Translations under genes and position numbers: made by a program | In this document: positions 34,182-49,901 of the stretch, piece after piece | Position numbering within the stretch: the first letter of the stretch is position 1 | How the letters are laid out: the number at the start of each line of letters is the position of its first letter | The notes under the pieces: model-generated | Database searches by the model: none | Seen by the model: the letters and a program-made list of their open reading frames with translations, nothing else | Told to the model about the DNA's origin: nothing | DNA from: Patescibacteria group bacterium | GTDB lineage: Bacteria > Patescibacteriota > Patescibacteriia > UBA9570 > JAHJKD01 | Length of the DNA: 64,000 bases | Assembly (NCBI GenBank): GCA_018822435.1 | Contig: JAHJKD010000050.1 | Location: 1,531 to 65,530 of the forward strand | Reading direction: 5' to 3'

Positions 34182-35237
34182 TTAGGCCGCTTCTTTGTCT
34201 TCCCTGTTTCTCTCATTTTCTTTCGCCATTCTAATCATTTCTTCCATAAAATCCACTTCTTCCTCTGGACCTTCTTCATCCCAGTTCTCTTCTTCTGGTA
34301 AACCTTCAGTCGGCTTTCTGGCAATTTCCTCATATTCCTGCCAAGTTAATTCATCCTCCCGATCCTGCCGATAACCTCTCGCCTCTGCTTCTGCGTATGA
34401 TCCAGCTGTTTCCTGGCCCATTTGTTCTATGGCGTCGGCTTTTTCTTCTATTCTCGTTTTCCGGTCCCGTTGCCTTAATTCCTGCCTGCCTGTCTTTCTT
34501 GTCCGTAATTCCGCCATAATCGCCTCCTGCCAAATATCAAAATTGTCTTTTCCGGAAAATTGCTGTTCCAAGGATTCTTCCATTTCTTGCCTTGAAAATC
34601 TTTCCTTTCCAAACCTGGCAGCCTCCAGGTCCCGGGCCACAAAATTTAGTTTCGATAATACCTGGCTGTGCCTGGCCTCTTTTTCCCTGATAAGGCTCTT
34701 GTCCGCCTTATTCTTAATCAACGACCCGATCTCGTCTTCCAGAGCCCGGTTCTCATCTTTATAATATTTAATCAGATCGGAAAAATGAATAATATTCCCC
34801 CTAAATTTTTTATCAGCTTTATTGTCTGCTTTTTCCTTTTCCGCTTTGATCTGATCCAACATATACACAAGCTGCTCTTTTTTCATATTCCTGACCCGGC
34901 CGGCCACTCTTCTTTCAATCACATGAGAAGGCGCCTTGGTTTTTTCCCTGCCCAGGCCGATTTGTTTTCTTTGTATGTTTTCTTTTTCACCAACATCAAA
35001 TGCCTCTGGTTGATGACCTATTGCATGATCCTCATTAAAACGCATTTCCAATTCATGATCCAGAAGCTCAGCCTCAGTTGCCGGCTGCCCTCTTCTTTCA
35101 ATGATTTCTCTTGCGTTATCAGGCCAATCTTGGGACGCCTGCATCTTATTATAAATGCGTCCTCTTTTTTCTGCACCTGATCTGTATGTTGCTCCTCTCA
35201 TATAAGTAAAAATACCTAAAAATCGGCCCCTAGTCAA
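34182..35237 (-). CDS. Hypothetical highly charged coiled-coil protein
   Basis: 351-aa ORF rich in E/K/R. No catalytic motif. Confidence 0.5.
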   Translation of the reverse strand: MTRGRFLGIFTYMRGATYRSGAEKRGRIYNKMQASQDWPDNAREIIERRGQPATEAELLDHELEMRFNEDHAIGHQPEAFDVGEKENIQRKQIGLGREKTKAPSHVIERRVAGRVRNMKKEQLVYMLDQIKAEKEKADNKADKKFRGNIIHFSDLIKYYKDENRALEDEIGSLIKNKADKSLIREKEARHSQVLSKLNFVARDLEAARFGKERFSRQEMEESLEQQFSGKDNFDIWQEAIMAELRTRKTGRQELRQRDRKTRIEEKADAIEQMGQETAGSYAEAEARGYRQDREDELTWQEYEEIARKPTEGLPEEENWDEEGPEEEVDFMEEMIRMAKENERNREDKEAA

Positions 35238-35272: not shown

Positions 35273-37366
35273 ATGGCAAATACGAAAAAAATCAATCCAA
35301 TTTTATATCCGCTGAATCCGAAACAGCAAGAAGCCGCTTCCGTGAATGAAGGGCCGGTTTTAATTTTGGCCGGCGCCGGTTCTGGCAAGACAAAAACACT
35401 GGTCCACCGCATTGCCAACCTCATCGCCGCTTACAAAGTTAAGCCTTGGAATATTCTGGCTGTCACTTTCACCAATAAAGCGGCTGGAGAAATAAAAGAA
35501 CGCGTGCAAAAGCTGATCGGCAAGAAATACAAGCATCTTCCTGCTATGGGTACTTTTCATTCCATCTGCGTCCGCATTTTAAGGCAGGAAATTGAGATAC
35601 TAGGCTACAAAAAGAACTATAATATTTTTGATTCTCATGACTCTCTGTCACTTATTAAGAAAGTCATGAAAGATCTGAACATCGATATTAAGCAAGTTAA
35701 TCCTCGGGCGATCGCGGCCATCATTTCTAATGCCAAAAACGAATTAATAGGGCCTGATGAGTATGCCGGACAAGCAAAAGGCTATATGGAACAAATGGTT
35801 GTAAAGGTCTATCCCGAATATCAGCGCCAGTTAAAAGACGCCAACTCGCTTGATTTTGACGACCTGATCATGAAAACCGTCCAGATTTTCCAGCAATATC
35901 CCGAAGTTTTAAAAAAATATCAGAATCTTTGGCATTATATATTAGTAGATGAGTATCAGGACACTAATCATGCCCAATACTTGTTCATTAAATTATTAGC
36001 CGAAGAAAAGAAAAACATTTGTGCCATAGGCGATGATTATCAGTCTATTTACGCCTTCCGCGGCGCAAATTACCAAAACATCCTGGATTTTGAAGATACA
36101 TTTGAAGATACAAAAACTGTTTATTTAGAGCAGAACTATCGTTCCACGCAAAATATTCTTGATACTGCTAACGAAATTATCAGTCATAATAAAAACCAAA
36201 AAGACAAAAAACTTTGGACAGAAAACCCCAAAGGCGACCGCGTCGTGGTTAAGGAGGTTCATGACGAAATCGACGAAGGCGAATATATTATTAAGTCTAT
36301 CTTTGGAATTGACGATGTAGGGGTCCGGAATTCTGAACCCGATCCCGACAGTGAAATAACTTATGAACCAGAAGAGCCCCAACACCAAACCATTCTAGAA
36401 AAAGTTATGGCTTCTAAAACTTTCCAAGAAAGACAAGAAGACAAAGATATATTAAATGCCGTGGAAAAATCTCTTAAAAAAACTGACTTATCCCAGTACG
36501 TAATTTTATACCGCACTAATGCCCAGTCCCGCGCCTTAGAAGAGTCTTTCTTAAAATATGGGATTCCCTATCGCATTATCGGCGGCATCAAGTTTTACGA
36601 AAGAAAAGAAATCAAAGACGTCCTCGCTTTCATGCGCGTCCTTTCCAATCCCTTGGACTGGGTCGCCCTGGAAAGATTGATCAATGTCCCTCCGCGCGGC
36701 GTTGGCCAAAAATCCTGGTTGAAAATTGAACGCGCCTGCCGCGATGCTGGGAAGACATATTTAGAAATAACTCCTAATGAAACTCCGGATGTGACTACTC
36801 GTTCCCGCCAAGGTTTTTTTATCTTTCAGGAAGCTATGAAAGAAATTGATGCCAAAAAAGAAAAATTAAATCCCACGGAAATATTAGACCTAATAGTAAA
36901 CAAGACTGGAATGAAGGCCTTTCTTAAAGATGGCAGTGAAGAGGGAGAAAGACGATGGGAAAATATCATGGAATTAAAAACTGTCACAAAAAAATACTTC
37001 GGCCAAAAAGGCCAGAAATCTTTAGAGGCATTTTTAGAGGAAGTCGCTCTAATATCTGATCAAGATAATATTGATGAAAAAGCCAAGGCCGTCAACATGA
37101 TGACGATTCATGCCGCCAAAGGCCTGGAATTTCCTAATGTATTTTTAGCGGGCATGGAAGAAGGCTTGTTCCCTCATTCCCGTTCTTTGTTTGAACCTAA
37201 AGAAATGGAAGAAGAACGCCGCCTCTGCTACGTCGCCCTCACCCGCGCCCGGGAAAAACTGAATTTAATTTATACATCACAACGGACTGTTTACGGCAAT
37301 ACGCAAATAAACGCTCCGTCAAGATTTATTGACGATCTTCCCAAAGAAAATATTGAAATGCGGTAA
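35273..37366 (+). CDS. pcrA: ATP-dependent DNA helicase, UvrD/PcrA family
   Basis: 697 aa. Walker A AGAGSGKT. Helicase motifs II DEYQDT through VI VALTRAR. Confidence 0.9.
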   Translation: MANTKKINPILYPLNPKQQEAASVNEGPVLILAGAGSGKTKTLVHRIANLIAAYKVKPWNILAVTFTNKAAGEIKERVQKLIGKKYKHLPAMGTFHSICVRILRQEIEILGYKKNYNIFDSHDSLSLIKKVMKDLNIDIKQVNPRAIAAIISNAKNELIGPDEYAGQAKGYMEQMVVKVYPEYQRQLKDANSLDFDDLIMKTVQIFQQYPEVLKKYQNLWHYILVDEYQDTNHAQYLFIKLLAEEKKNICAIGDDYQSIYAFRGANYQNILDFEDTFEDTKTVYLEQNYRSTQNILDTANEIISHNKNQKDKKLWTENPKGDRVVVKEVHDEIDEGEYIIKSIFGIDDVGVRNSEPDPDSEITYEPEEPQHQTILEKVMASKTFQERQEDKDILNAVEKSLKKTDLSQYVILYRTNAQSRALEESFLKYGIPYRIIGGIKFYERKEIKDVLAFMRVLSNPLDWVALERLINVPPRGVGQKSWLKIERACRDAGKTYLEITPNETPDVTTRSRQGFFIFQEAMKEIDAKKEKLNPTEILDLIVNKTGMKAFLKDGSEEGERRWENIMELKTVTKKYFGQKGQKSLEAFLEEVALISDQDNIDEKAKAVNMMTIHAAKGLEFPNVFLAGMEEGLFPHSRSLFEPKEMEEERRLCYVALTRAREKLNLIYTSQRTVYGNTQINAPSRFIDDLPKENIEMR

Positions 37367-37370
37367 AACT

Positions 37371-37404
37371 AAATATCCTACCCCTTAAGGGGCAGGATAT
37401 TTAG
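37371..37404. terminator. Near-perfect 16-bp palindrome between convergent pcrA and a small minus-strand ORF (bidirectional terminator candidate)
   Basis: aaatatcctacccctt/aaggggcaggatattt. Confidence 0.4.
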
Positions 37405-37413
37405 TTTTTATTT

Positions 37414-37554
37414 TTATTTTTCCTTCAATTTCTGCAAATCAAAAACGGCCTTGCCTGAGACTTTCATTTTAGGCTTTTTTGTTTTCTTCTGCTGCCGTCG
37501 TTTTGACTTGGCTTCAGCTTTCTTTTCTAACTCATGAGAGTGGTTGTTCTTCAT
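37414..37554 (-). CDS. Small basic protein (46 aa), hypothetical
   Basis: MKNNHSHELEKKAEAKSKRRQQKKTKKPKMKVSGKAVFDLQKLKEK. Below the ORF-track size cutoff. Confidence 0.3.
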   Translation of the reverse strand: MKNNHSHELEKKAEAKSKRRQQKKTKKPKMKVSGKAVFDLQKLKEK

Positions 37555-37668
37555 GAGTGTATTATATAAAACGAACTAGAATTTGAAAAGAAGGAGGGGG
37601 AGGATTTCGGGAGGGGGAGGAGGATCCGAGGGGTTATGCCGAAGCAAAACCACACGGACCTCCTTCCC

Positions 37669-37998
37669 CTATGGGAGAACAAATCGGAACAAACAAGTGT
37701 CCCCAGCCACGACCACCTTGCGGGGGTCATAACCGTCTGCCCATGAGATCCCCCGAAGGGTTTCCCACAAAAAAATATCGTCTCCCAACGTACATGCTTT
37801 CAGCATGATCATGTAGTAGGACTGTCCCACGTACACGATTTTGCCTTCTGCACGCACGCCCCCCACCAACGCTACTGTCTCCTCCGAAGGGACATCCTCC
37901 GAATACTCGAAGACCAGAACGAGCGTATCGTCCGTAGTCCTCATAGCGTCGACATTTTGGGGGGTGGAGCATTCTCCCGAAGGCTGCGTGGCCAACAT
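37669..37998 (-). CDS. Hypothetical protein, GC-rich island gene
   Basis: 109-aa ORF. SD aaaggagg 8 nt upstream of the ATG. GC-rich versus AT-rich flanks. Confidence 0.5.
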   Translation of the reverse strand: MLATQPSGECSTPQNVDAMRTTDDTLVLVFEYSEDVPSEETVALVGGVRAEGKIVYVGQSYYMIMLKACTLGDDIFLWETLRGISWADGYDPRKVVVAGDTCLFRFVLP

Positions 37999-38108
37999 CT
38001 CTCTGCCTCCTTTAAATACTCACCCCCTTGCAGGGGGCTATGCGGCTTGATTGCCGACGGTAAAACTTACAATTTTTCTTGAATTAAGTCAATATTGTTA
38101 TCTACATT

Positions 38109-38200
38109 GACAAATTAGCAAAAATATGATATTATATATATAATATAAGCCAAACCTTGACATTATAAGCAAATTGCGCTAATATAATTCGTTTTACTAT
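38109..38200 (+). promoter_or_regulatory. Two tandem sigma70-like promoters (TTGACA-17-TATTAT; TTGACA-17-TAATAT) upstream of 38215
   Basis: Read directly from the sequence. Confidence 0.45.
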
Positions 38201-38214
38201 TAGCTTAAAATTAT

Positions 38215-38511
38215 ATGTTTAAAGAAGGAACAAACACTTCAACCCAACCTAGGCCTGAACCAAAAAAACAGGATAAAAAAATCAATGGCACAAGATCAGA
38301 ACAGCCTACTTCTGAAGATTTAGCTGATCTGCAATCTGCTTTTCCAGAGAGAGACTTAACCAGCCATGCTGTTGGTGGAAAGCAAGCCCAGGAAGGACTG
38401 CAACAGACTCTCCAAGAAATCAGAGCCAGCGAGGAAAGCCGAAAAGCACGATACGCTTCCCTGAAAGAAAAAATGGACAAAGAAAGAGAAGACAGAGAAA
38501 AAAGAGCTTAA
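38215..38511 (+). CDS. Charged/disordered protein sharing an N-terminal module with the next gene
   Basis: 98 aa. KKQDKKINGTRSEQPTSEDLADLQSAFP versus AKQDRKIKGVRAEQPTQADADALQAAFP in the downstream paralogue. Confidence 0.5.
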   Translation: MFKEGTNTSTQPRPEPKKQDKKINGTRSEQPTSEDLADLQSAFPERDLTSHAVGGKQAQEGLQQTLQEIRASEESRKARYASLKEKMDKEREDREKRA

Positions 38512-38529
38512 TTATTATATCTATATACT

Positions 38530-39789
38530 ATGCCTAATTTAGAAACCAGAATGGGCTCAAAGCCCGCCACACAAGAAGGTGCTAAACAAGACAGAAAAAT
38601 AAAAGGTGTAAGAGCAGAACAGCCTACTCAGGCTGATGCTGATGCATTGCAGGCTGCTTTTCCTGATAAAAAAATCAAGCAAGCCATTGCCGCTCAAGAT
38701 GCTGACCAAATTGCGGCTGTAAAAAAGAAAATGGGTGTTGATCCTAGTGTTGCGCAAAAGCGCCCTGGCGAAACAACTGGTGAATACAAAACCAGACTAT
38801 CCCGATACAATCTGGAAGAAAATTATGGCGCCCCGAAAAAACCTGTTTCTGCCGCTGCTATGAAACCTGGCGAAGTAATGGTGGCCCGCAAAGATCCAGG
38901 CCAGCCTGTCCAGCCTGTTGAGGAAGTTAAATCCAAACTAGACGACTTAATGAGTGAATACGTAAACCTTCGCACCAAGATGAAAAAACTTGAAGGCAAA
39001 GGCTTTGCTTTCTTTAAAAAAGCTCGCCTTAACCGCCTCAAACAAATGGAAGGAAATCTAAATACCCAAGTTGCCGAACTGACTCCGATTGAAAATAGAA
39101 AAGATGCTCGTGCGCTTTATGACAGAATGGACATCAATTTAGGTGACCGCATGACTGCCAATGCCCGCGCGGAAGTAGAAAAACAAAATGCCTCTTATAT
39201 GGAAGCAATTGGTCCGGCTTTAGAAGCCCGGCGTGTAGCTGAAGCGGAAAAAAGCCTTGGCGAAGCAGCTGCAGCCAGAGAAGAGGAAATGGCGGCTTAT
39301 CGTCCCATTACTGACGTTGAGGAAAATATTACTGAAAAACAGCCAGATGTAACTGAACAATTAGAATTAATTGAAGAAAAACCTGATGTAAGTGAAGATC
39401 TTGAATTAGTTGATGAAACAAAACCGACAAGAAAAGATATGGAAGGAGCAATTCAAGCCAGAAAAATTTTAGTTGAAGATATGGGTGAAATTGAGGCTGG
39501 CGACGACGAACCAACTGATGAAGAAATTGCTGCTCAAATGGAAGAAATTAATCTACAATTAGCCGAAGAAGAAAAAGCTGCCAGAATGGCAAAATATCCT
39601 AAGGCTATTAAGCTAAAAGAGGGTACTCAGCCTGAACCATATGCGGGGGGCCCGACTCTAACGGAAAGCTCCGCTCCAAAATCTGCCACGCAAGTGCCAG
39701 AAAAGGATCTGCCTGAATTAAAACTTGATGATGAAGTTGAAGAAATCGAACTGGATGAAGATGATAAAGACCAGGCTGCGTCAGCTTAA
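38530..39789 (+). CDS. Charged coiled-coil/low-complexity protein with conserved N-terminal module (paralogue of 38215)
   Basis: 419 aa. Shared N-terminal roughly 40-aa motif. Acidic C-terminal half. Confidence 0.55.
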   Translation: MPNLETRMGSKPATQEGAKQDRKIKGVRAEQPTQADADALQAAFPDKKIKQAIAAQDADQIAAVKKKMGVDPSVAQKRPGETTGEYKTRLSRYNLEENYGAPKKPVSAAAMKPGEVMVARKDPGQPVQPVEEVKSKLDDLMSEYVNLRTKMKKLEGKGFAFFKKARLNRLKQMEGNLNTQVAELTPIENRKDARALYDRMDINLGDRMTANARAEVEKQNASYMEAIGPALEARRVAEAEKSLGEAAAAREEEMAAYRPITDVEENITEKQPDVTEQLELIEEKPDVSEDLELVDETKPTRKDMEGAIQARKILVEDMGEIEAGDDEPTDEEIAAQMEEINLQLAEEEKAARMAKYPKAIKLKEGTQPEPYAGGPTLTESSAPKSATQVPEKDLPELKLDDEVEEIELDEDDKDQAASA

Positions 39790-41024
39790 ATACCTTTTAA
39801 CCTAAGCTTGCGATGATAAGCTATGGCAAAACGATGCGCTTCATCGCGCATGCGCTGCATTAAATAATATCCTTCTGAATCCTCGGTCAACTTCCGGGGA
39901 TTCTTTATATTTGGCATATAAATTTCTTCTTCCCTCTTTGCTAAAGCCACAACTGGCACTTTATATTCTTCCCAAATATCTTTTACTGCATTTAATTGCC
40001 CCTTGCCGCCGTCCATGATCGCCAAATCCGGCTTGGGCCACTTATTTTTCACCCGCCGCATAATAACTTCTTTCATCATAGCGACGTCATTAATGCCGGA
40101 CACGGTTTTTATCTTAAATTTTCTGTATTCCTGCTTATCCGCCTGACCATTTGTAAACACGACCATAGAACCGACGGCAAACGTGCCCTGAATATTAGAA
40201 ATGTCGTAAATCTCTATCCGCTGGGGCAGCTTATTTAATTTTAATTTTAATTTAATCTGCACCAGCGCTTTGCGTATCTTCTCTTGCTCAGAACGTTTCT
40301 GAATTTGAAGCGAAGTAAGACGAATCTCTTTAAGTTTATTCATCGCCCGCATCTGGTCCCGATAATATGCCGCCTTTTCAAAATTCTTTTGTTCAGAAGC
40401 TTTTTTCATCTTTGCTTCCGCTGCAACAATAAATTTATCTTCATTGCCTTCAAAAAAATCAATTACTTCGTTTATTATCTTCTGATACTCCTCTTTTGGT
40501 ATACCATCCACGCATGGCGCCAGGCATCGGCCCATATGATATTCCAGGCACGGCTTTTTCGGCATAGCGGAACAGGAACGAAGCGGGAATATCTTGTGAA
40601 AATATCGATACACTTGCTTGACCGGCCGGCTCCAGGGAAACGGGCCGAAATATCTGGCCTTTTGCCGGAAATTCGGTCGGCGCACAAATTCCACTTTTGG
40701 AAAATCTTCTTCTTTTATTTTTAAATATAAATAATTCTTATCATCTTTCAACATTATGTTATAAGGTGGCTTGTATTTCTTAATCAACATTCTCTCCAAT
40801 ATTAAAGCCCTGGCTTCGTTCTTGGTATTTTGCACTTTCACGTCAGCTATTAAACGGACCATAACTTGCTTCATTACGGACAAATCAGAGCCTTTTTGAA
40901 AATATGACCTCACTCGGGAACGTAAATTCACGGCCTTACCAATATAAAGCACCCGGCCTTTTTTATCATAAAAAGTATAGGCCCCGGCCGTATTTGGTAG
41001 ATTTTGTAGCTTTTTATTTTCCAT
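39786..41024 (-). CDS. uvrC: Excinuclease ABC subunit C, short form lacking C-terminal (HhH)2 domain
   Basis: 412 aa. GIY-YIG (YTFYDKKGRVLYIGKA), UvrC Cys motif CLEYHMGRCLAPC, endonuclease block IMDGGKGQL...DEAHRFAIAYHRKLR. About 200 aa shorter than canonical UvrC. Confidence 0.8.
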   Translation of the reverse strand: MENKKLQNLPNTAGAYTFYDKKGRVLYIGKAVNLRSRVRSYFQKGSDLSVMKQVMVRLIADVKVQNTKNEARALILERMLIKKYKPPYNIMLKDDKNYLYLKIKEEDFPKVEFVRRPNFRQKARYFGPFPWSRPVKQVYRYFHKIFPLRSCSAMPKKPCLEYHMGRCLAPCVDGIPKEEYQKIINEVIDFFEGNEDKFIVAAEAKMKKASEQKNFEKAAYYRDQMRAMNKLKEIRLTSLQIQKRSEQEKIRKALVQIKLKLKLNKLPQRIEIYDISNIQGTFAVGSMVVFTNGQADKQEYRKFKIKTVSGINDVAMMKEVIMRRVKNKWPKPDLAIMDGGKGQLNAVKDIWEEYKVPVVALAKREEEIYMPNIKNPRKLTEDSEGYYLMQRMRDEAHRFAIAYHRKLRLKGI

Positions 41025-41212: not shown

Positions 41213-44047
41213 ATGGATATAAATAAAATTAGCGTCAAAGGCGCCCGTGTCCACAACCTAAAGAATATCAACGTCGATATTCCTCGGGACAAGTTAGTTG
41301 TTATTACCGGCATTTCCGGATCAGGCAAGTCATCGCTCGCTTTTGATACGATTTATGCGGAAGGACAAAGAAGATATGTCGAAAGCCTGTCTGCTTATGC
41401 CCGCCAGTTCTTAGGTTTAATGGACAAGCCTGATGTCGACCAAATTGAAGGCCTTTCTCCGGCCATTTCCATAGACCAGAAAACAGCTTCTCATAATCCG
41501 CGTTCTACTGTGGGCACAGTCACCGAAGTTTATGATTATTTACGTCTGCTATACGCCCGCATTGGCATTCCTCATTGTCCTAAATGCGGACAAGTTATAG
41601 TTAAGCAAACTCGAAAACAAATCTCCGATAAAATTTTAAAAATGGAAGAGGGCACCGAATTCATGATTATTTCCCCTATTATTCGTGATAAAAAAGGTGA
41701 ACATAAATCCGTTATTGAAGAAGCCCGAAAATCTGGCTATGTCCGCCTACGGATCGATAACAATCTATATTCTATCGAAGAAGCCGAAGACAAGGACCTG
41801 GATAAGAAGAAAAAACATAATATAGACGTTGTAATTGACCGGCTGACAATTGGAAAAGAATTAGAAAAAGAAAGATTGACAGAATCTTTAGAAACGGCCC
41901 TGGATCTTTCCAACGGCTTAGTCGTGGTTCATGATTCTAAAGCAGAAAAAGACAATATCTTTTCTGAACACTTTTCTTGTCCAAAATGTGACATTTCCCT
42001 GGAAGACATTGAACCTAGAAACTTTTCCTTTAACAGCCCGCATGGTGCTTGTCCTGAATGTACAGGCCTGGGCACGAAGCTGGAAGTTGATGAAAATTTA
42101 GTTATACCAAATAAAAAACTTTCTATTGCTGAGGGCGCTATCCGTCCCTGGTCCCGCACTTCTTCTAATCAGACCTGGCAAATGCGTATCCTGGAAGCTG
42201 TGGCTAAAACAAATGGTTTTTCTACCCGTACTCCGATTAAAAATCTATCGCCGCAAGACTTGAATGTCATTCTGTTTGGAACTGGCAGTAAATCTTATGA
42301 TGTAAATGCTCCGTATACTACTGGCAAAGTCAAAGAATTCTATACAAACTATGAAGGCGTTATTCCTAATTTGGAACGCCGGCACAGAGAAACCGAGTCT
42401 GATTACATGCGTACCGAGATTGAAAGATATATGCGTATTTACGCTTGTCCGCTATGTGTTGGCAAGCGCTTAAGAAAAGAAGCTCTTGGCGTCACCATTG
42501 CCGACCAGAACATATCCCAAGTCACTTCCCTGCCCATTGATAAGACCCTGGATTTTTTCCGCGGATTAAAACTTAATCAGCGGGATCAAAAAATTGCCAA
42601 GCAAATATTAAAAGAAATTGATTCGCGGTTGAAATTCCTGACTAATGTCGGCCTTTCCTATTTGACCCTGGACAGAACCGCGTCCACTTTGGCCGGCGGT
42701 GAGGCCCAGCGCATCCGTTTGGCTACCCAAATCGGCTCTGCCCTGACTGGCGTATTATATATTCTCGATGAACCTTCCATCGGCTTGCACCAAAGAGATA
42801 ATATGCGATTGATTGAAACTCTGCAAAATCTCAAAGCCTTAGGAAATACAGTTATAGTAGTAGAACATGATGAAGAAACCATTTTAGAAGCTGATTATGT
42901 CATTGACATCGGCCCTGGAGCTGGCGCCCAAGGAGGAGAAGTTGTCGCCCAAGGCACGCCGGCCGAATTAATGAAAAAAAAATGTCTGACTGGCGAATAT
43001 CTTTCCGGCAAAAAAGAAATTGCTGTTCCAAAAAAATTCCGCAAAGGCAATGGCCTGGACATTGAAGTTATTGGCGCGGCCGCCCATAACCTTAAAGAAA
43101 TAGATGTTAAGATTCCTTTAGGTAAGCTCGTTTCTATCACTGGTGTTTCCGGGTCTGGAAAATCAACCTTAATGACAGATATTCTTGCCCGTGCCCTGGC
43201 CCTGCAATTCCATAATGCAAAAAATCTTCCGGCCGAACATAAAGAAATTAAAGGTCTTAAAAACTTGGATAAAGTTATTCATATAGACCAATCTCCTATT
43301 GGCCGCACCCCGCGTTCCAACCCCGCCACCTACACCGGCGTTTTCACTTATATCCGAGACCTCTTTACCCAAGTCCCAGAATCTAAAATGCGCGGGTATA
43401 AAGCGGGACGCTTCTCTTTCAATGTAAAAGGTGGTCGTTGCGAAGCTTGCCAGGGCGATGGTGTCCAAAGGATTGAAATGCATTTCCTGCCTGATGTTTA
43501 TGTTAAATGCCCGGAATGCAAAGGCAAACGTTATAATCCTGAAGCTCTTGAAATCCATTATCGGGAAAAAAACATTTCCGACGTCTTAGAAATGAGCGTG
43601 GAAGAAGCTTATCATTTCTTTGGCAATATCCCGGCTGTTAAAGAAAAAATGCAGACTCTGCGCGATGTCGGCCTTGGTTATATCAAGCTTGGCCAGAATG
43701 CCACCACTCTTTCCGGCGGTGAAGCCCAGCGGGTTAAGTTAGCGACAGAATTATCCCGCCGCGCTACTGGAAAAACACTTTATATTTTAGATGAACCGAC
43801 CACCGGCCTGCACTTTGAAGATGTGAAAAAATTATTATCTGTATTAAACCGGCTTGTCGATAAAGGCAATAGTGTCTTAATTATCGAACACAATCTCGAC
43901 GTCATTAAATCATGCGATTGGATTATTGATCTTGGTCCGGAAGGCGGCGATCGCGGCGGCCTAGTGATTGCCCAGGGTACTCCACCTGAAGTGGCTAAAG
44001 AAAAAAAATCTTATACCGGTAAATATTTAAGGCGATATTTTAAATAA
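41213..44047 (+). CDS. uvrA: Excinuclease ABC subunit A
   Basis: 944 aa. Two ABC modules ([21 protein letters not shown]), zinc-finger Cys clusters, signature LSGGEAQR x2. Confidence 0.95.
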
Positions 44048-46465: not shown

Positions 46466-47281
46466 TTATGACAATTTCTTATTCTGAGGTTTTTTAAGAT
46501 AATTATTTTTAATTGAAATCTTTTTTCCCGTACGTTTCTCAATGTCCTTACGGGTAGATCCGGCTACTTCACCGCCTTCTTTAGCATCTTTTTTTAATGG
46601 TTTGAAAGATTTGGACTCTTTGTCTTGAGTTAATCTGGTTGTTGTCGCTTCACCCAGCATTGTCAGGATCAATTCCAAATCATCCATATGATCCCTTAGA
46701 TTCTCACGCTGTAAATTCTTAAACTTTTTATACTCCTCCGGCGACATGTCAAAAGTGGCCTTAGAAATTTCTGAAGTCAAAATGGCGTATTCCCTCGCTT
46801 GTTTTAGCCCTCTTTTACTCCACTCATCAGTCAGCTCTTCCCGCACAGCAATGCCCCTCATCCTCTTCTCAATCCAGGAGTCACTATATCCCTTGGCTTT
46901 ATATAGCGCCTTTGTCCTTTTTGTTGCCAATTCCGGATCTTCAATTTCTTTGATCCTTTCATAGCCAACTCTGGCTAGCCAACGCTTGAAAGGTTCGGCT
47001 TTAGGCGAAGGGATTGATTGGATAATACGAAATATCCCCTCTGTATTGGCGCAATTCATCTCTTGTTTGCCGCCTTTAGTGCCTATTTCAAGGGTGTGTA
47101 CAATTTGTACCCACCCCTTAGCTATTTCTGCGTCTCTCTGCTTCATCCGTTGTATATATTGTTTTGCGTCCCGAGAATCAATTAATGCTAAAACAACATC
47201 TTCAACAACAAACCACCATTCATTATCATGAATAGTCCTTCTCACTTTTTTCCCTTTAAAAATCGCAATTTTATTATTCAT
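46466..47281 (-). CDS. Bro-N domain protein (DinD / phage antirepressor-like)
   Basis: 271 aa. N-terminus IAIFKGKKVRRTIHDNEWWFVVEDVVLALIDS fits Bro-N. Basic C-terminus. Confidence 0.55.
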   Translation of the reverse strand: MNNKIAIFKGKKVRRTIHDNEWWFVVEDVVLALIDSRDAKQYIQRMKQRDAEIAKGWVQIVHTLEIGTKGGKQEMNCANTEGIFRIIQSIPSPKAEPFKRWLARVGYERIKEIEDPELATKRTKALYKAKGYSDSWIEKRMRGIAVREELTDEWSKRGLKQAREYAILTSEISKATFDMSPEEYKKFKNLQRENLRDHMDDLELILTMLGEATTTRLTQDKESKSFKPLKKDAKEGGEVAGSTRKDIEKRTGKKISIKNNYLKKPQNKKLS

Positions 47282-47637
47282 CTAATTTTATTTTAAATGA
47301 TTATATTAATTATAACAAAAATAAATAAAAACACCCGGATTTTTTTGGGTGTTCTGAATTTAACATATAAATTTTTATATCTCAAATTTAACACAAAATT
47401 TGAAATATGGCAAATCCTTATTTCAAGTAAAATTTAATTAACTATTATATAAAATAGACAAAATTTAAACTGCCACCGAGAACTTCCTTTGTGTATGACA
47501 GTCGCTGCTGTCGCTGAGGGAGGCGTGGACACCGTCATCAGGAAGATGATGTTCGGAAATGGGTTGTGGTGTCTCTGAGGGCAAGTACGGAGCAGACTTC
47601 TTCCTCCAGCTGGCGAAGAAGTAGAAAGGAGGAGGCC

Positions 47638-47736
47638 ATGTCTCATTCACGAGCCGGGCCAACAGACTCGCCAGCGGAGGCCTCAAGCCAAGAATCCCTG
47701 GTGAGTCTCCGTAAAATTATTACATTTTTAAAATAA
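47638..47736 (+). CDS. Candidate 32-aa peptide gene with strong SD at end of GC-rich segment
   Basis: aaaggaggaggcc ATG ... TAA followed by the terminator at 47743. Neither overlapping minus-strand ORF has an RBS. Confidence 0.2.
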   Translation: MSHSRAGPTDSPAEASSQESLVSLRKIITFLK

Positions 47737-47742
47737 TAAAAA

Positions 47743-47770
47743 CACCCGAATATCATCGGGTATTTTTATT
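47743..47770. terminator. Bidirectional hairpin terminator (acccga-atatcat-tcgggt) with T-runs on both strands
   Basis: On the minus strand it follows the displaced tRNA 3' fragment. On the plus strand it follows the peptide ORF. Confidence 0.6.
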
Positions 47771-47815
47771 GTTGGTTGCGGGGGGCGGATTCGAACCGCC
47801 GACCTGATGGTTATG
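47765..47815 (-). repeat. Partial tRNA-Met copy (anticodon loop to 3' end, with encoded CCA) = distal att direct repeat
   Basis: 42 nt (47765-47806) identical to 49829-49870 inside the intact tRNA-Met. The 5' half is absent. Confidence 0.75.
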
Positions 47816-47994
47816 AAGATTGGGACCCCTCATCAACCAATTTGGCTAACCTAAGTCATTTATAGCTGAGCTCAGCTAAAATTTACCCACCTATCATTTT
47901 CTCAAGCATTCCCAAACTTGATCAAATGTACTCAATCATCATCACTTCGTGGGCAACTGGTGGGCAACGCTTTTTAAGAAAGTAATTATTAATT

Positions 47995-48204
47995 ATGAAA
48001 ACCAATCACAATGAATCCAAGCCATTGGATGAATCTCTCTTAACCGTAAGCCAAGTTGCGAAGCTGTTGAATCTTTCCAAAACAACAATCTATCGTCTGG
48101 TTGAGACGCGACAAATTCCACACTACAGAATTTCCGGGTCTCTCCGCTTTTCACGGAAAGAGATAGAAGAATATTTAAGGCAAGAAAGCTACAGATCTCC
48201 CTAG
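47995..48204 (+). CDS. xis: Excisionase/AlpA-family HTH DNA-binding protein
   Basis: 69 aa. LTVSQVAKLLNLSKTTIYRLVETRQIPHYRISGSLRFSRKEIEEYL matches the excisionase-family DNA-binding domain. Confidence 0.7.
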   Translation: MKTNHNESKPLDESLLTVSQVAKLLNLSKTTIYRLVETRQIPHYRISGSLRFSRKEIEEYLRQESYRSP

Positions 48205-48296
48205 AACCCAATTTAGAAAATTTTTATATTTCCTGCCTACATTGACAAATAGCAAATCTTTCTTAAGATAAATGTACTTATTTTTAACACAATATT

Positions 48297-48839
48297 ATGA
48301 GTGTAAAATTTTTAAAGAGCTTTGATGATTATTGCGAAGAGCACACATCAAAGGAAGATGTAAACGAAGCAATTAAAAATCCAGATAAAGTGACCAGAGA
48401 AGATATGGGTAATCAGCAATCCCTGTTCTTTTTGAAACATTTCTCTGAAGGCGAAAATGAATATTACATTCTTGCCTGCGCTACCAAAAAGGAAGATGAA
48501 ACTAGTGTATATGCCGCTTTTTATCTGCCACCGGAATTTGATAGTCAACTATCTAAAATGGATGCAATAGATGTAATGGTGGCTGTGGCCGAGGCATTTG
48601 GTTTAGAGGCAACTAGCGGTTCAGCCAAATCTAAGTTTATTCATCATCAGACCTATTGGACTGACAACGATAATTCTATACCTTTTATAGAAGGATTTCA
48701 GCCAGGTGATAAAAAAATGATATGTCAAACGTGGTTTAAAAAAGAGCCCCACGGAAGCAAAGTTCGTATCGAAATTCATACTGCTTTTTGCATCAATATG
48801 GATATTTATTACGAATGGCTACATTCTATTAAAAGATAA
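48297..48839 (+). CDS. Hypothetical protein (element cargo)
   Basis: 180-aa ORF. No motif recognised. Confidence 0.45.
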   Translation: MSVKFLKSFDDYCEEHTSKEDVNEAIKNPDKVTREDMGNQQSLFFLKHFSEGENEYYILACATKKEDETSVYAAFYLPPEFDSQLSKMDAIDVMVAVAEAFGLEATSGSAKSKFIHHQTYWTDNDNSIPFIEGFQPGDKKMICQTWFKKEPHGSKVRIEIHTAFCINMDIYYEWLHSIKR

Positions 48840-48849
48840 GAATAAGAAC

Positions 48850-49701
48850 TCATGCTAAAATATATTTCTTTATATAAACATCTAACTCTATCCAATTAAC
48901 CAAGGGCCTATTAAATTTTTGTATAATTGGTTCGACTTCCTTCGCTATAATATTATTTTTAATCAAGAAATACATTTGTGAGAATTTTCCTCTGTTCTCA
49001 TTATCTTGTTCTTCCCAACTTATTATCACTCCAAGGATATTCTTGTTTGAAGATAAAAATAGCTGGACTGGTATAGACATCTCTGCCAAGCCTGGTTTTA
49101 GAATCCAGTGCTGAGGTACTCTAAGAAATATAATTCCTAAGTTTTCTTTTCGAATTTGTTCAGCTGCTTTCTCACAAGGTTTTACTATTGATTCTTCAGA
49201 ATAGGGGGTAGTTTCAGATTTATTTTTTACCTCACATCGTATTTCAGGAGTAGTCTTTAAAAGTATATCAAAATTTTTATCTTTATCCTTATCTTTATCA
49301 GCGATAACAAACTCAAATGGTAAATTTCTTCTGAAGAAATGAGCACCACCACCCAATTCAGCAAATCGCGAAGTTAGATTTCCTCTTTTTATATGCTTAA
49401 CAACAGAGTCTATCCCCTCAACATGCTGCATGTTGTAAACCATTTCAGCTAAATCAGTAACCCGATTTTGATGGACAAATCCCATTTTCTTTGTGAGTAG
49501 AAACACCCTAGCTTCTTCTGTTTGTTGTGGATGCCGGCTATGTTGCATAAAAAGCGTTTGATTGGCCCATTCGTTTCTTATCATTCTTCTTATCAATTCT
49601 ATTGAGACGGCGCTCCTATAGAAATCAAACTTTTCTTTTGGGAGCTTGTTTTTTATTGTTTGGCATAATTTTTTTATTTCTGCCTCACTGACTTTTTCCA
49701 T
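48850..49701 (-). CDS. Hypothetical protein (element cargo)
   Basis: 283-aa ORF. No motif recognised. Confidence 0.45.
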   Translation of the reverse strand: MEKVSEAEIKKLCQTIKNKLPKEKFDFYRSAVSIELIRRMIRNEWANQTLFMQHSRHPQQTEEARVFLLTKKMGFVHQNRVTDLAEMVYNMQHVEGIDSVVKHIKRGNLTSRFAELGGGAHFFRRNLPFEFVIADKDKDKDKNFDILLKTTPEIRCEVKNKSETTPYSEESIVKPCEKAAEQIRKENLGIIFLRVPQHWILKPGLAEMSIPVQLFLSSNKNILGVIISWEEQDNENRGKFSQMYFLIKNNIIAKEVEPIIQKFNRPLVNWIELDVYIKKYILA

Positions 49702-49828
49702 ATGTTTCTTATTAATAATTACCCACTACTTATTTTATCATGTTCAATTACAATAATAACAACATAATATAATTGTAGTTTTTAGGTGTGATTTGATTTA
49801 ATCAGTAAACACCGATGAGGGACTTCTT

Positions 49829-49870
49829 GTTGCGGGGGGCGGATTCGAACCGCCGACCTGATGGTTATGA
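49829..49870 (-). repeat. Proximal att direct repeat (inside tRNA-Met)
   Basis: gttgcggggggcggattcgaaccgccgacctgatggttatga identical to 47765-47806. Confidence 0.75.
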
Positions 49871-49901
49871 GCCACCCGAGCTGCCACTGCTCCACCCCGC
49901 G
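49830..49901 (-). tRNA. tRNA-Met (anticodon CAT), initiator-like (C1:A72 mismatch)
   Basis: CGCGGGGUGGAGCAG...GGCUCAUAACC...GGUUCGAAUCCGCCCCCCGCAA. Close to E. coli tRNA-fMet. CCA not encoded. Confidence 0.8.

What the first reader, a model, noticed from the sequence alone, without database searches (positions are those of the whole stretch)
38109..39789. Adjacent paralogues sharing a conserved N-terminal roughly 40-aa module on otherwise disordered charged proteins
98-aa and 419-aa ORFs begin with near-identical KxQDxKIxGxRxEQPTxxDxxxLQxAFP segments, with nucleotide identity around gaacagcctact. They then diverge into low-complexity E/K/A-rich sequence. Each has strong promoters: two TTGACA-17-TAwTAT upstream of the first. 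A shared N-terminal module on variable tails resembles a targeting or secretion tag, or a polymorphic-protein arrangement. No known domain was recognised.
Basis: seen in the sequence. Interest (0 to 1): 0.5.

Follow-up and report, generated by a model that had tools for sequence, protein, structure and literature searches.

The report
Fast-evolving charged paralogue pair, function unknown
Two neighbouring genes of an uncultured Patescibacteria bacterium encode highly charged proteins of unknown function that share a real, conserved N-terminal segment; the pair occurs only in a handful of closely related organisms and shows no sign of being a secretion tag or a toxin system.

Summary
ORF-S (38215-38511, 98 aa) and ORF-L (38530-39789, 419 aa) share an N-terminal segment: 21/44 identical, E=1e-6, with reciprocal profile hits. 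Two consensus promoters lie upstream of ORF-S.

The same S+L pair, each with the module, sits in the same place (next to uvrC) in three to four related metagenomic lineages. A full HMMER scan of 1.84 billion proteins found only four L-family members. GTDB genomes, JGI metagenomes, IMG/VR and phage records gave nothing. So this is an old, clade-restricted partial duplication. S matches roughly the first 80-100 residues of L.

The genes are real, because codon periodicity is present. They evolve fast: about 50% identity where UvrC is 88%. They have no hydrophobic segment and no known domain. The AlphaFold model is low-confidence and mostly helical. In a more distant relative, three neighbouring proteins, one of them GGDEF-like, share a different N-terminal motif.

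My best guess, at low confidence, is a shared protein-protein docking or assembly region on co-expressed cytoplasmic proteins. The secretion-tag and polymorphic-toxin readings are not supported.

The more unusual feature is next door. A GC-rich gene for a 109-aa protein has an exceptionally structured mRNA (z -6.5 to -10.5), supported by covariation, and no Rfam match.

The parts
38107..38135 (+). Promoter P1: TTGACA, 17-nt spacer, TG-extended TATTAT (11 of 12 matches)
   Evidence: Conserved in the window, L001, L007 and L004.
38157..38185 (+). Promoter P2: TTGACA, 17-nt spacer, TAATAT (10 of 12 matches)
   Evidence: Conserved in four loci.
38215..38511 (+). ORF-S, 98 aa, 40% charged residues, no hydrophobic segment. 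It is the short paralogue and matches about the first 80-100 residues of ORF-L.
   Evidence: Orthologues in L001 (81 aa) and L006/L007/L008 (87 aa) with coding-type codon periodicity. The S profile aligns to L residues 21-98.
38263..38358 (+). Shared module in ORF-S (residues 17-48): a basic G-containing stretch, then T-x-x-D-x-x-x-L-x-x-x-F-P
38530..39789 (+). ORF-L, 419 aa. The N-terminal half is net basic and residues 241-419 carry a net charge of about -35. The AlphaFold model is low-confidence and mostly helical. The gene starts 18 nt after the S stop, so it is probably co-transcribed (inferred).
   Evidence: Family members are P0002, P0004, P0005 and the L007 462-aa protein.
38581..38676 (+). 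Shared module in ORF-L (residues 18-49). The AlphaFold model places a short helix at residues 34-43 and leaves residues 1-29 disordered.
38935..39084 (+). Most conserved core of the L family (residues 136-185): EYxxLRxKMxKLxGKGFAFFKKxRLxRLxQMExNLNxQV, a basic helix
   Evidence: 13 of 20 residues are identical among close orthologues, and 14/20 and 11/20 in the two 20-residue blocks match the distant P0005.
39436..39546 (+). Conserved acidic motif of L (residues 303-339): GAIQARKxLVEDMGEIEAGDDEPTDEEIAAQM
   Evidence: 17 of 20 identical among close orthologues.
39736..39786 (+). Conserved acidic C-terminal tail of L: VEEIELDEDDxDQAxSA
37669..37998 (-). Syntenic neighbour, transcribed divergently: a GC-rich gene for a 109-aa all-beta protein. 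It is part of the conserved cassette, but its link to S and L is only positional.
37540..38062 (-). Highly structured transcript that carries the 109-aa ORF. The Shine-Dalgarno region pairs with a CU-rich tract at the 3' end.
   Evidence: No Rfam family matched.

Best explanation
ORF-S and ORF-L are real genes specific to one lineage, and they arose by an old partial tandem duplication. S corresponds to the N-terminal 80-100 residues of L. They are probably co-transcribed from two tandem consensus promoters, so high expression is inferred. They encode cytoplasmic, non-enzymatic, very hydrophilic proteins that are largely helical or disordered.

The shared N-terminal region has three parts: a basic stretch, a short N-capped helix T-x-x-D-x-x-x-[LM]-x-x-x-F-P, and a following helix. 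It is kept by selection on the protein. I infer that it is a protein-protein interaction region. Through it S and L would either assemble with each other or bind one common partner, with S acting as a short 'N-terminus-only' partner or competitor of L. L's own conserved core (the basic helix at 136-185, the acidic motif at 303-339 and the acidic tail) would carry the family's main, still unknown, activity.

Shown: paralogy, conservation, synteny, coding status, composition, and the absence of known domains or signal peptides. Inferred: co-transcription, high expression, the docking or assembly role, and cytoplasmic location.
For: - Paralogy is significant: BLASTP E=1e-6, hhalign E=8e-5, reciprocal profile hits, and shuffle p<0.0005 in three genomes.
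- Both paralogues keep the module in the window, L001 and L006/L007/L008.
- The constraint acts on the protein, not the RNA. Codon positions 1 and 2 are more conserved than position 3 between the S and L modules. The nucleotide sequence of the module is not conserved across orthologues.
- S and L orthologues show coding periodicity.
- AlphaFold gives a disordered N-terminus, a short helix at exactly T33-A43, then long helices, with no compact fold (pTM 0.21).
- There is no hydrophobic segment.
- Locus L004 has three adjacent proteins with different bodies, including a GGDEF-like one, that carry one shared N-terminal motif. This suggests the N-terminal element can be moved between proteins and co-evolves within a genome.
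- The promoters are conserved in four loci.
Against: - No partner has been identified, and no interaction was or could be tested here.
- Within L the module is not the best conserved part: 5-7 of 20 residues are identical among close orthologues, against 13-17 of 20 in the core motifs.
- The helix has only a modest hydrophobic moment, 0.23-0.47.
- The L004 motif is not detectably homologous to the window-type module by HMM. The 'portable tag' argument therefore rests on analogy plus a partial alignment.
- The structure model has low confidence.
Confidence: 0.35

Rival explanations
1. The shared segment is just a relic of partial tandem duplication. It is conserved only because it is part of the general fold or function of both proteins, and it has no separate 'module' role.
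For: S aligns with L over about 75 residues, not only the 30-40 of the motif. The module is no better conserved than the rest of L. Carriers are restricted to this one cassette.
Against: Both copies have kept the same motif through divergence in which S and L orthologues fell to about 40-50% identity. A third, non-paralogous GGDEF-like protein carries the local motif in L004.
Confidence: 0.25
2. S and L are nucleic-acid-associated proteins of the nucleoid, of DNA repair or of RNA. The basic N-terminal region would bind DNA or RNA, and the long acidic C-terminal half of L would act as an autoinhibitory or DNA-mimicking tail.
For: L has a dipolar charge layout: the N-terminal half is net positive and residues 241-419 carry a net charge of about -35. 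It has a conserved basic helix, KGFAFFKKARLNRLK. The pair is fixed between uvrD and uvrC/uvrA and lies next to an unusually structured RNA.
Against: No nucleic-acid-binding domain was detected. In L004 the left neighbour is a GGDEF-like gene rather than uvrD, so the link to repair genes may be plain synteny.
Confidence: 0.15
3. The module is an N-terminal address tag for secretion, or for loading into a compartment or particle.
For: It is a short conserved N-terminal peptide on proteins with different bodies. Formally it resembles encapsulation peptides or capsid-targeting sequences (my own knowledge, not tested).
Against: There is no hydrophobic core. No secretion, pilus, shell or capsid genes were found in the Pfam-annotated stretches around the pair. 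Only two carriers exist in the 64 kb. No viral relatives were found.
Confidence: 0.08
4. S and L are stress-protective hydrophilins, like LEA proteins: abundant, charged, helix-prone disordered proteins. On this reading the N-terminal similarity has no specific role.
For: The composition is rich in E, K, A and Q, with 36-40% charged residues. The promoters are strong. Sequence evolution is fast: about 50% identity where UvrC is 88%. The only weak Pfam hit is to the disordered protein calpastatin, at E=0.004 and below the cut-off.
Against: No LEA or other hydrophilin family was hit in Pfam. There are no 11-mer repeats. L has sharply conserved non-repetitive motifs, which argues for specific interactions.
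Confidence: 0.1

Closest known systems
DivIVA / GpsB type paralogue pairs (shared N-terminal interaction domain, different C-terminal coiled-coil parts)
   Same: Two paralogues in one genome keep a homologous N-terminal region of about 50-80 residues while the rest differs in length. Both are helical, elongated cytoplasmic proteins.
   Different: There is no sequence relationship, and Pfam DivIVA was not hit. No membrane-binding loop is recognisable. The comparison comes from my own knowledge of that family, not from a test.
Short N-terminal targeting peptides (microcompartment encapsulation peptides, phage T4 capsid-targeting sequences, encapsulin cargo peptides)
   Same: A short, helix-forming peptide near the N-terminus is shared by proteins with different bodies.
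   Different: No shell, capsid or encapsulin genes lie nearby. No viral homologues were found. The peptide sits 15-20 residues in from the N-terminus, and only 2-3 proteins carry it.
Polymorphic toxin / effector cassettes
   Same: Adjacent genes share a conserved N-terminus and differ in their continuation.
   Different: The C-terminal part of L is conserved among orthologues rather than variable. No toxin, immunity or trafficking domains were found. No secretion system is present.
Bacterial disordered hub or scaffold proteins such as PopZ (short conserved N-terminal helix, acidic disordered linker, helical assembly region)
   Same: A short conserved N-terminal helix on an otherwise acidic, low-complexity, helix-rich protein.
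   Different: There is no sequence similarity and the organisms are different. Oligomerisation and hub function are untested. The analogy is from my own knowledge.

Membership tests
Sec/Tat/lipoprotein or type IV pilin-like signal peptides | Hydrophobic core of about 10-20 residues near the N-terminus | tested here: not met
   The maximum Kyte-Doolittle mean over 19 residues is -0.12 for S and 0.22 for L. The N-termini are charged and hydrophilic.
Polymorphic toxin systems | Variable C-terminal toxin domain among relatives that share the N-terminus | tested here: not met
   The C-terminal motifs of L are conserved across four orthologues. No toxin domain appears in Pfam or PADLOC.
Polymorphic toxin systems | Adjacent immunity gene and a cognate secretion system | tested here: not met
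   The neighbours are uvrD, uvrC, uvrA, SecG, RNase J and EF-P.
Encapsulation or capsid-targeting peptides | Shell, encapsulin or capsid genes in the same locus or genome | tested here: inconclusive
   None lie in the stretches of the window that carry Pfam annotation. The left 28 kb of the window and the rest of the genome were not checked.
Any curated protein family (Pfam-A, NCBIfam, PHROGs, PADLOC, PDB sequences) | Score above the curated cut-off or a significant E-value | tested here: not met
   The best result is Calpain_inhib at 18 bits against a cut-off of 22, which reflects composition.
Beta-clamp-binding motif proteins (QL[SD]LF type; considered because of the repair-gene context) | Conserved Q and hydrophobic positions of the pentapeptide | tested here: not met
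   LQSAF and LQAAF in the window become MKKDF and MKEKF in the L orthologues, so the Q is not conserved. The motif definition comes from my own knowledge.
Rfam RNA families (for the structured neighbour) | Covariance-model score at or above the gathering threshold | tested here: not met
   The window gives only two tRNAs. With the permissive search, 37350-38250 gives only sub-threshold hairpin hits.
Sm/Hfq-like proteins (for the 109-aa neighbour) | Sm fold and Sm1/Sm2 motifs | tested here: inconclusive

The most novel reading that the evidence does not exclude
The whole clade-specific cassette may be one system. Its parts are the divergently transcribed, extremely structured mRNA with an occluded Shine-Dalgarno sequence that encodes a small beta protein, and the strongly promoted S and L proteins. 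In a sister lineage a GGDEF-like enzyme joins them. In this reading the co-evolving N-terminal motif is a portable address that recruits different proteins to a common hub, possibly the small beta protein or its RNA.
Probability: 0.12. Interest if true: 0.6.

Novelty: new member of a known kind. Interest (0 to 1): 0.28.

Why it matters
On its own the pair is an orphan, fast-evolving gene family in an uncultured Patescibacteria clade. It shows how lineage-specific charged proteins arise by partial duplication and keep a short N-terminal interaction element. It does not open a known question.

It would matter more if the N-terminal motif proves to be a genuine portable docking tag, because that would give a handle on protein organisation in CPR (Candidate Phyla Radiation) cells, about which almost nothing is known.

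The neighbouring gene is of independent interest. Its mRNA is as structured as a ribozyme-class RNA and shows covariation, with GC3 of 65% in a genome where the neighbouring ORF-L has 30%. It could be a case of strong selection on mRNA structure or of a dual-function RNA.

Tried and rejected
- Wider family membership. The word-indexed searches returned only self plus one homologue for L, only self for S, and only the three S proteins for the module profile. The module-profile search scored just 600 candidates and missed the L proteins, so it is not exhaustive for the module alone.
- Exhaustive HMMER with the L alignment found four proteins in 1.84 billion.
- Scans of GTDB genomes, JGI metagenome contigs, IMG/VR and INPHARED phages found nothing.
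- Known domains: Pfam, NCBIfam, PHROGs, PADLOC and PDB all gave nothing.
- The idea that the GC-rich island left of the pair is a non-coding RNA was rejected as the sole explanation. The ORF shows coding periodicity (60/74/45 of 108 identical by codon position) and protein-level conservation in three lineages. The RNA structure is nevertheless also conserved.
- Recent gene conversion between the S and L modules is only weakly suggested. Ten of 17 identical residues use the same codon. The window L module is as close to S-type modules (12-14 of 27-28 positions) as to L-type ones (8-13 of 27). This is not conclusive.
- Stop-codon read-through fusing S and L: the two are in the same frame in the window but in different frames in L001 and L007, so I treat this as coincidence (coordinates).
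- The widespread 46-aa basic protein was tested as a marker of the cassette and rejected. About 70 metagenomic loci carry it, and none has S, L or relatives of the 109-aa protein.
- One literature search gave nothing relevant.

Full report
**What is there.** The window comes from a Patescibacteria metagenome-assembled genome (GCA_018814995.1, contig JAHIYR010000040.1). ORF-S (38215-38511, 98 aa) and ORF-L (38530-39789, 419 aa) lie head to tail on the + strand, 18 nt apart. To the left are uvrD/pcrA (35273-37366,+), a 46-aa ORF and a GC-rich 109-aa ORF, the last two on the minus strand. To the right are uvrC (39786-41024,-) and uvrA (41213-44047,+).

Two near-consensus sigma-70-type promoters precede ORF-S. 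They are TTGACA-17-TGnTATTAT at 38107-38135 and TTGACA-17-TAATAT at 38157-38185. ORF-L has no comparable promoter, so co-transcription is inferred.

**Check of the observation.**
- BLASTP aligns S 5-48 with L 9-49: 21/44 identical, E=1e-6.
- The core is 17/32 identical in protein and 63/96 in DNA.
- Identity by codon position is 23, 23 and 17 of 32. The constraint is therefore on the protein, not on an RNA element.
- In local-alignment shuffles, none of 2000 reached the observed score in the window, L001 or L007.
- hhalign of the S family against the L family gives E=8e-5 over 50 columns.
- In a set of 9,274 ORFs, the S profile finds L proteins (E 2.6e-5 to 4.5e-3, with S positions 5-81 aligned to L 21-98). 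The L profile finds S proteins (E 5e-4 to 2e-3).

S is thus a paralogue of roughly the first 80-100 residues of L. The similarity is not confined to a 40-residue tag.

**Distribution.** The word-indexed search of 5.8 billion proteins found one non-self homologue of L (P0002, 44% identity) and none of S. A full HMMER scan of 1.84 billion representatives with the L alignment found four proteins in all: self, P0002, the fragment P0004 and the distant P0005.

Their contigs (L001, L004/L005, L006/L007/L008) all show the same arrangement:
- a GC-rich minus-strand gene of 109-120 aa;
- two conserved TTGACA promoters;
- a small protein, then a large protein;
- uvrC, where the contig reaches that far (L004, L007).

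The S and L proteins of L001 and L006/L007 both carry the module, with HMM scores of 58-66 bits. No other ORF in the 64-kb window does.

Nothing related was found in one genome per GTDB species, JGI metagenome contigs, IMG/VR or phage records. The pair is therefore an old duplication confined to a narrow clade.

That clade is tight: UvrC is 88% identical between the window and L007, and 83% between the window and L004. Over the same distances L is only about 50% and 38% identical, and S is 48% identical between the window and L007. These genes evolve fast. Codon-position identity (position 3 lowest) shows that S and L are genuine coding genes.

**Anatomy of the proteins.**
- Both are very hydrophilic, with 40% and 36% charged residues, and have no hydrophobic segment. 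A classical signal peptide or membrane anchor is excluded.
- L is dipolar: its N-terminal half is net basic and residues 241-419 carry a net charge of about -35.
- AlphaFold with a four-sequence alignment gives a low-confidence, non-compact model (pLDDT 60, pTM 0.21). Residues 1-29 are disordered, a short helix lies at 34-43 (exactly the T-x-x-D...A-F part of the module), and long helices span 130-256.
- The invariant module positions across six sequences are G, T, D and F-P.
- Within L the module is not the best conserved part. The core at 141-180 (EY..LR.KM.KL.GKGFAFFKK.RL.RL.QME.NLN.QV), the motif EAGDDEPTDEEIAAQM and the acidic C-terminal tail are much better conserved.
- The window's L lacks a C-terminal segment of about 60 residues that looks globular and is present in P0002, L007 and P0005.

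**The distant locus L004.** The positional S (142 aa), the L orthologue (P0005) and a third protein on the other side share the motif L-x-I-x-[DN]-[LV]-R-W at residues 16-31. The third protein is 436 aa and GGDEF-like, with Pfam GGDEF at E=5e-4 (below cut-off), a PDB diguanylate cyclase at E=0.007, and the motif GGDEFSV.

P0005 also keeps the first half of the window-type module: AGNIRPESAP against AGITRPEATP. This hints that the N-terminal element can sit on different protein bodies and changes in step within a genome. The L004 motif is not detectably homologous to the window-type module by HMM, so the point is suggestive only.

**Interpretation.** The best-supported reading is a lineage-specific pair of cytoplasmic, probably abundant, helical or disordered proteins. 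Their shared N-terminal region would be a protein-protein interaction element, either for S-L assembly or for binding one common partner. S would be a short N-terminus-only paralogue. My confidence is about 0.35, and no interaction was testable here.

The rivals are a plain duplication relic, a nucleic-acid-associated dipolar protein, a hydrophilin-type protectant and an address tag. The secretion and polymorphic-toxin readings lack every defining feature that could be tested.

**Noticed next door.** The minus-strand transcript of the 109-aa gene (37540-38062) folds with z=-6.5. Its orthologues fold with z=-6.7 and -10.5, while the S/L mRNA gives z=+0.2.

A consensus structure of 147 pairs is 86% paired across three sequences, against 45-50% when the partners are slid. 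It has 54 pairs with changes on both sides, against 6-18 in the slid controls. The caveat is that the structure was derived from the same three sequences.

The Shine-Dalgarno region pairs with a conserved CU-rich 3' tract (helix 3). The ORF is nevertheless coding: codon-position identity is 60/74/45 of 108, protein identity is 41% and 27%, and GC3 is 0.65 against 0.30 in ORF-L. No Rfam family matches. The protein model is all-beta but of low confidence, and no fold match is usable.

The 46-aa basic ORF downstream (KPKMKVSGK motif) belongs to a widespread family of small proteins in metagenomes. That family is not otherwise linked to this cassette.

**Verdict.** The module idea is partly right, and the secretion and polymorphic readings are unsupported. 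The pair is a new orphan family of an ordinary kind and of modest interest. The structured mRNA beside it deserves its own follow-up.

Noticed in passing
window 37540-38062 (-), ORF 37669-37998 (-); orthologues L007 2310-2832 (-) and L004 1550-2060 (-): A GC-rich island (55% GC against about 40% around it) holds a conserved, truly coding 109-120-aa ORF. Its transcript is extraordinarily structured (z -6.5, -6.7 and -10.5) with many UUCG and GNRA loops. Covariation supports the structure: 86% of cells are paired against 45-50% in slid controls. The 5' UTR plus the first 13 codons are about 90% identical across lineages. No Rfam family matches. It may be a dual-function RNA or a translationally gated mRNA.
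   Followed up: partly
window about 37555-37610 (-) pairing with about 38003-38013 (-): A CU-rich tract (CCUCCUCCCCCUCCCGAAAUCCUCCCCCUCCUUCUUUUC) lies 3' of the 109-aa ORF. It resembles an anti-Shine-Dalgarno sequence and is predicted to pair with the AAAGGAGG ribosome-binding site of the same transcript in all three orthologues (helix 3).
   Followed up: partly
window 37414-37554 (-): A 46-aa very basic ORF (MKNNHSHELEKKAEAKSKRRQQKKTKKPKMKVSGKAVFDLQKLKEK) belongs to a widespread family of small proteins of about 45 aa. About 70 metagenomic loci share KPKMKVSGK(S/R)VF. It has no Pfam, NCBIfam or PHROG match and is not annotated in some assemblies.
   Followed up: partly
L004 74-1384 (-): A 436-aa protein with a divergent GGDEF-like domain (motif GGDEFSV; Pfam E=5e-4, below the cut-off) carries the same N-terminal L-x-I-x-D-L-R-W motif as the positional S and L proteins of that locus. 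No orthologue exists in the 64-kb window.
   Followed up: partly
window 39600-39735 (+), compared with P0002 residues about 350-430: The window's ORF-L lacks a segment of about 60 residues that looks globular (YQVTSP...WGTLGDEYGEL...VFVRDKKDL...). P0002, the L007 protein and P0005 all have it, so the window copy carries a lineage-specific deletion.
   Followed up: no
window 39786-39789: The stop codons of ORF-L (+) and uvrC (-) overlap by 4 nt. The genes converge with no terminator between them.
   Followed up: no
window 37362-37414: A strong hairpin lies between the convergent uvrD and the 46-aa gene. It gave only sub-threshold Rfam hairpin hits and is conserved as a hairpin in L007 at 2130-2160. 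It is probably a bidirectional terminator.
   Followed up: no
L007 16-2121 (+): The uvrD-like ORF of this contig begins with about 150 residues that look like a transposase N-terminus. From 'LIKKVMKDLNIDIKQVNPRA' onward it continues as UvrD. This may be an insertion-sequence junction or a chimeric assembly.
   Followed up: no
window 46466-49901: A Bro-N domain gene (46466-47281,-), an HTH_17 excisionase-like gene and several ORFs without any family lie next to tRNA-Met (49829-49901,-). This may be a remnant of an integrated element.
   Followed up: no
window 34182-35237 (-): Another highly charged protein of 339-351 aa with no family match lies divergent from uvrD. Its N-terminal stretch RRGQPATEAELLD loosely recalls the module (R.EQPT..D) but is not significant by HMM.
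   Followed up: partly
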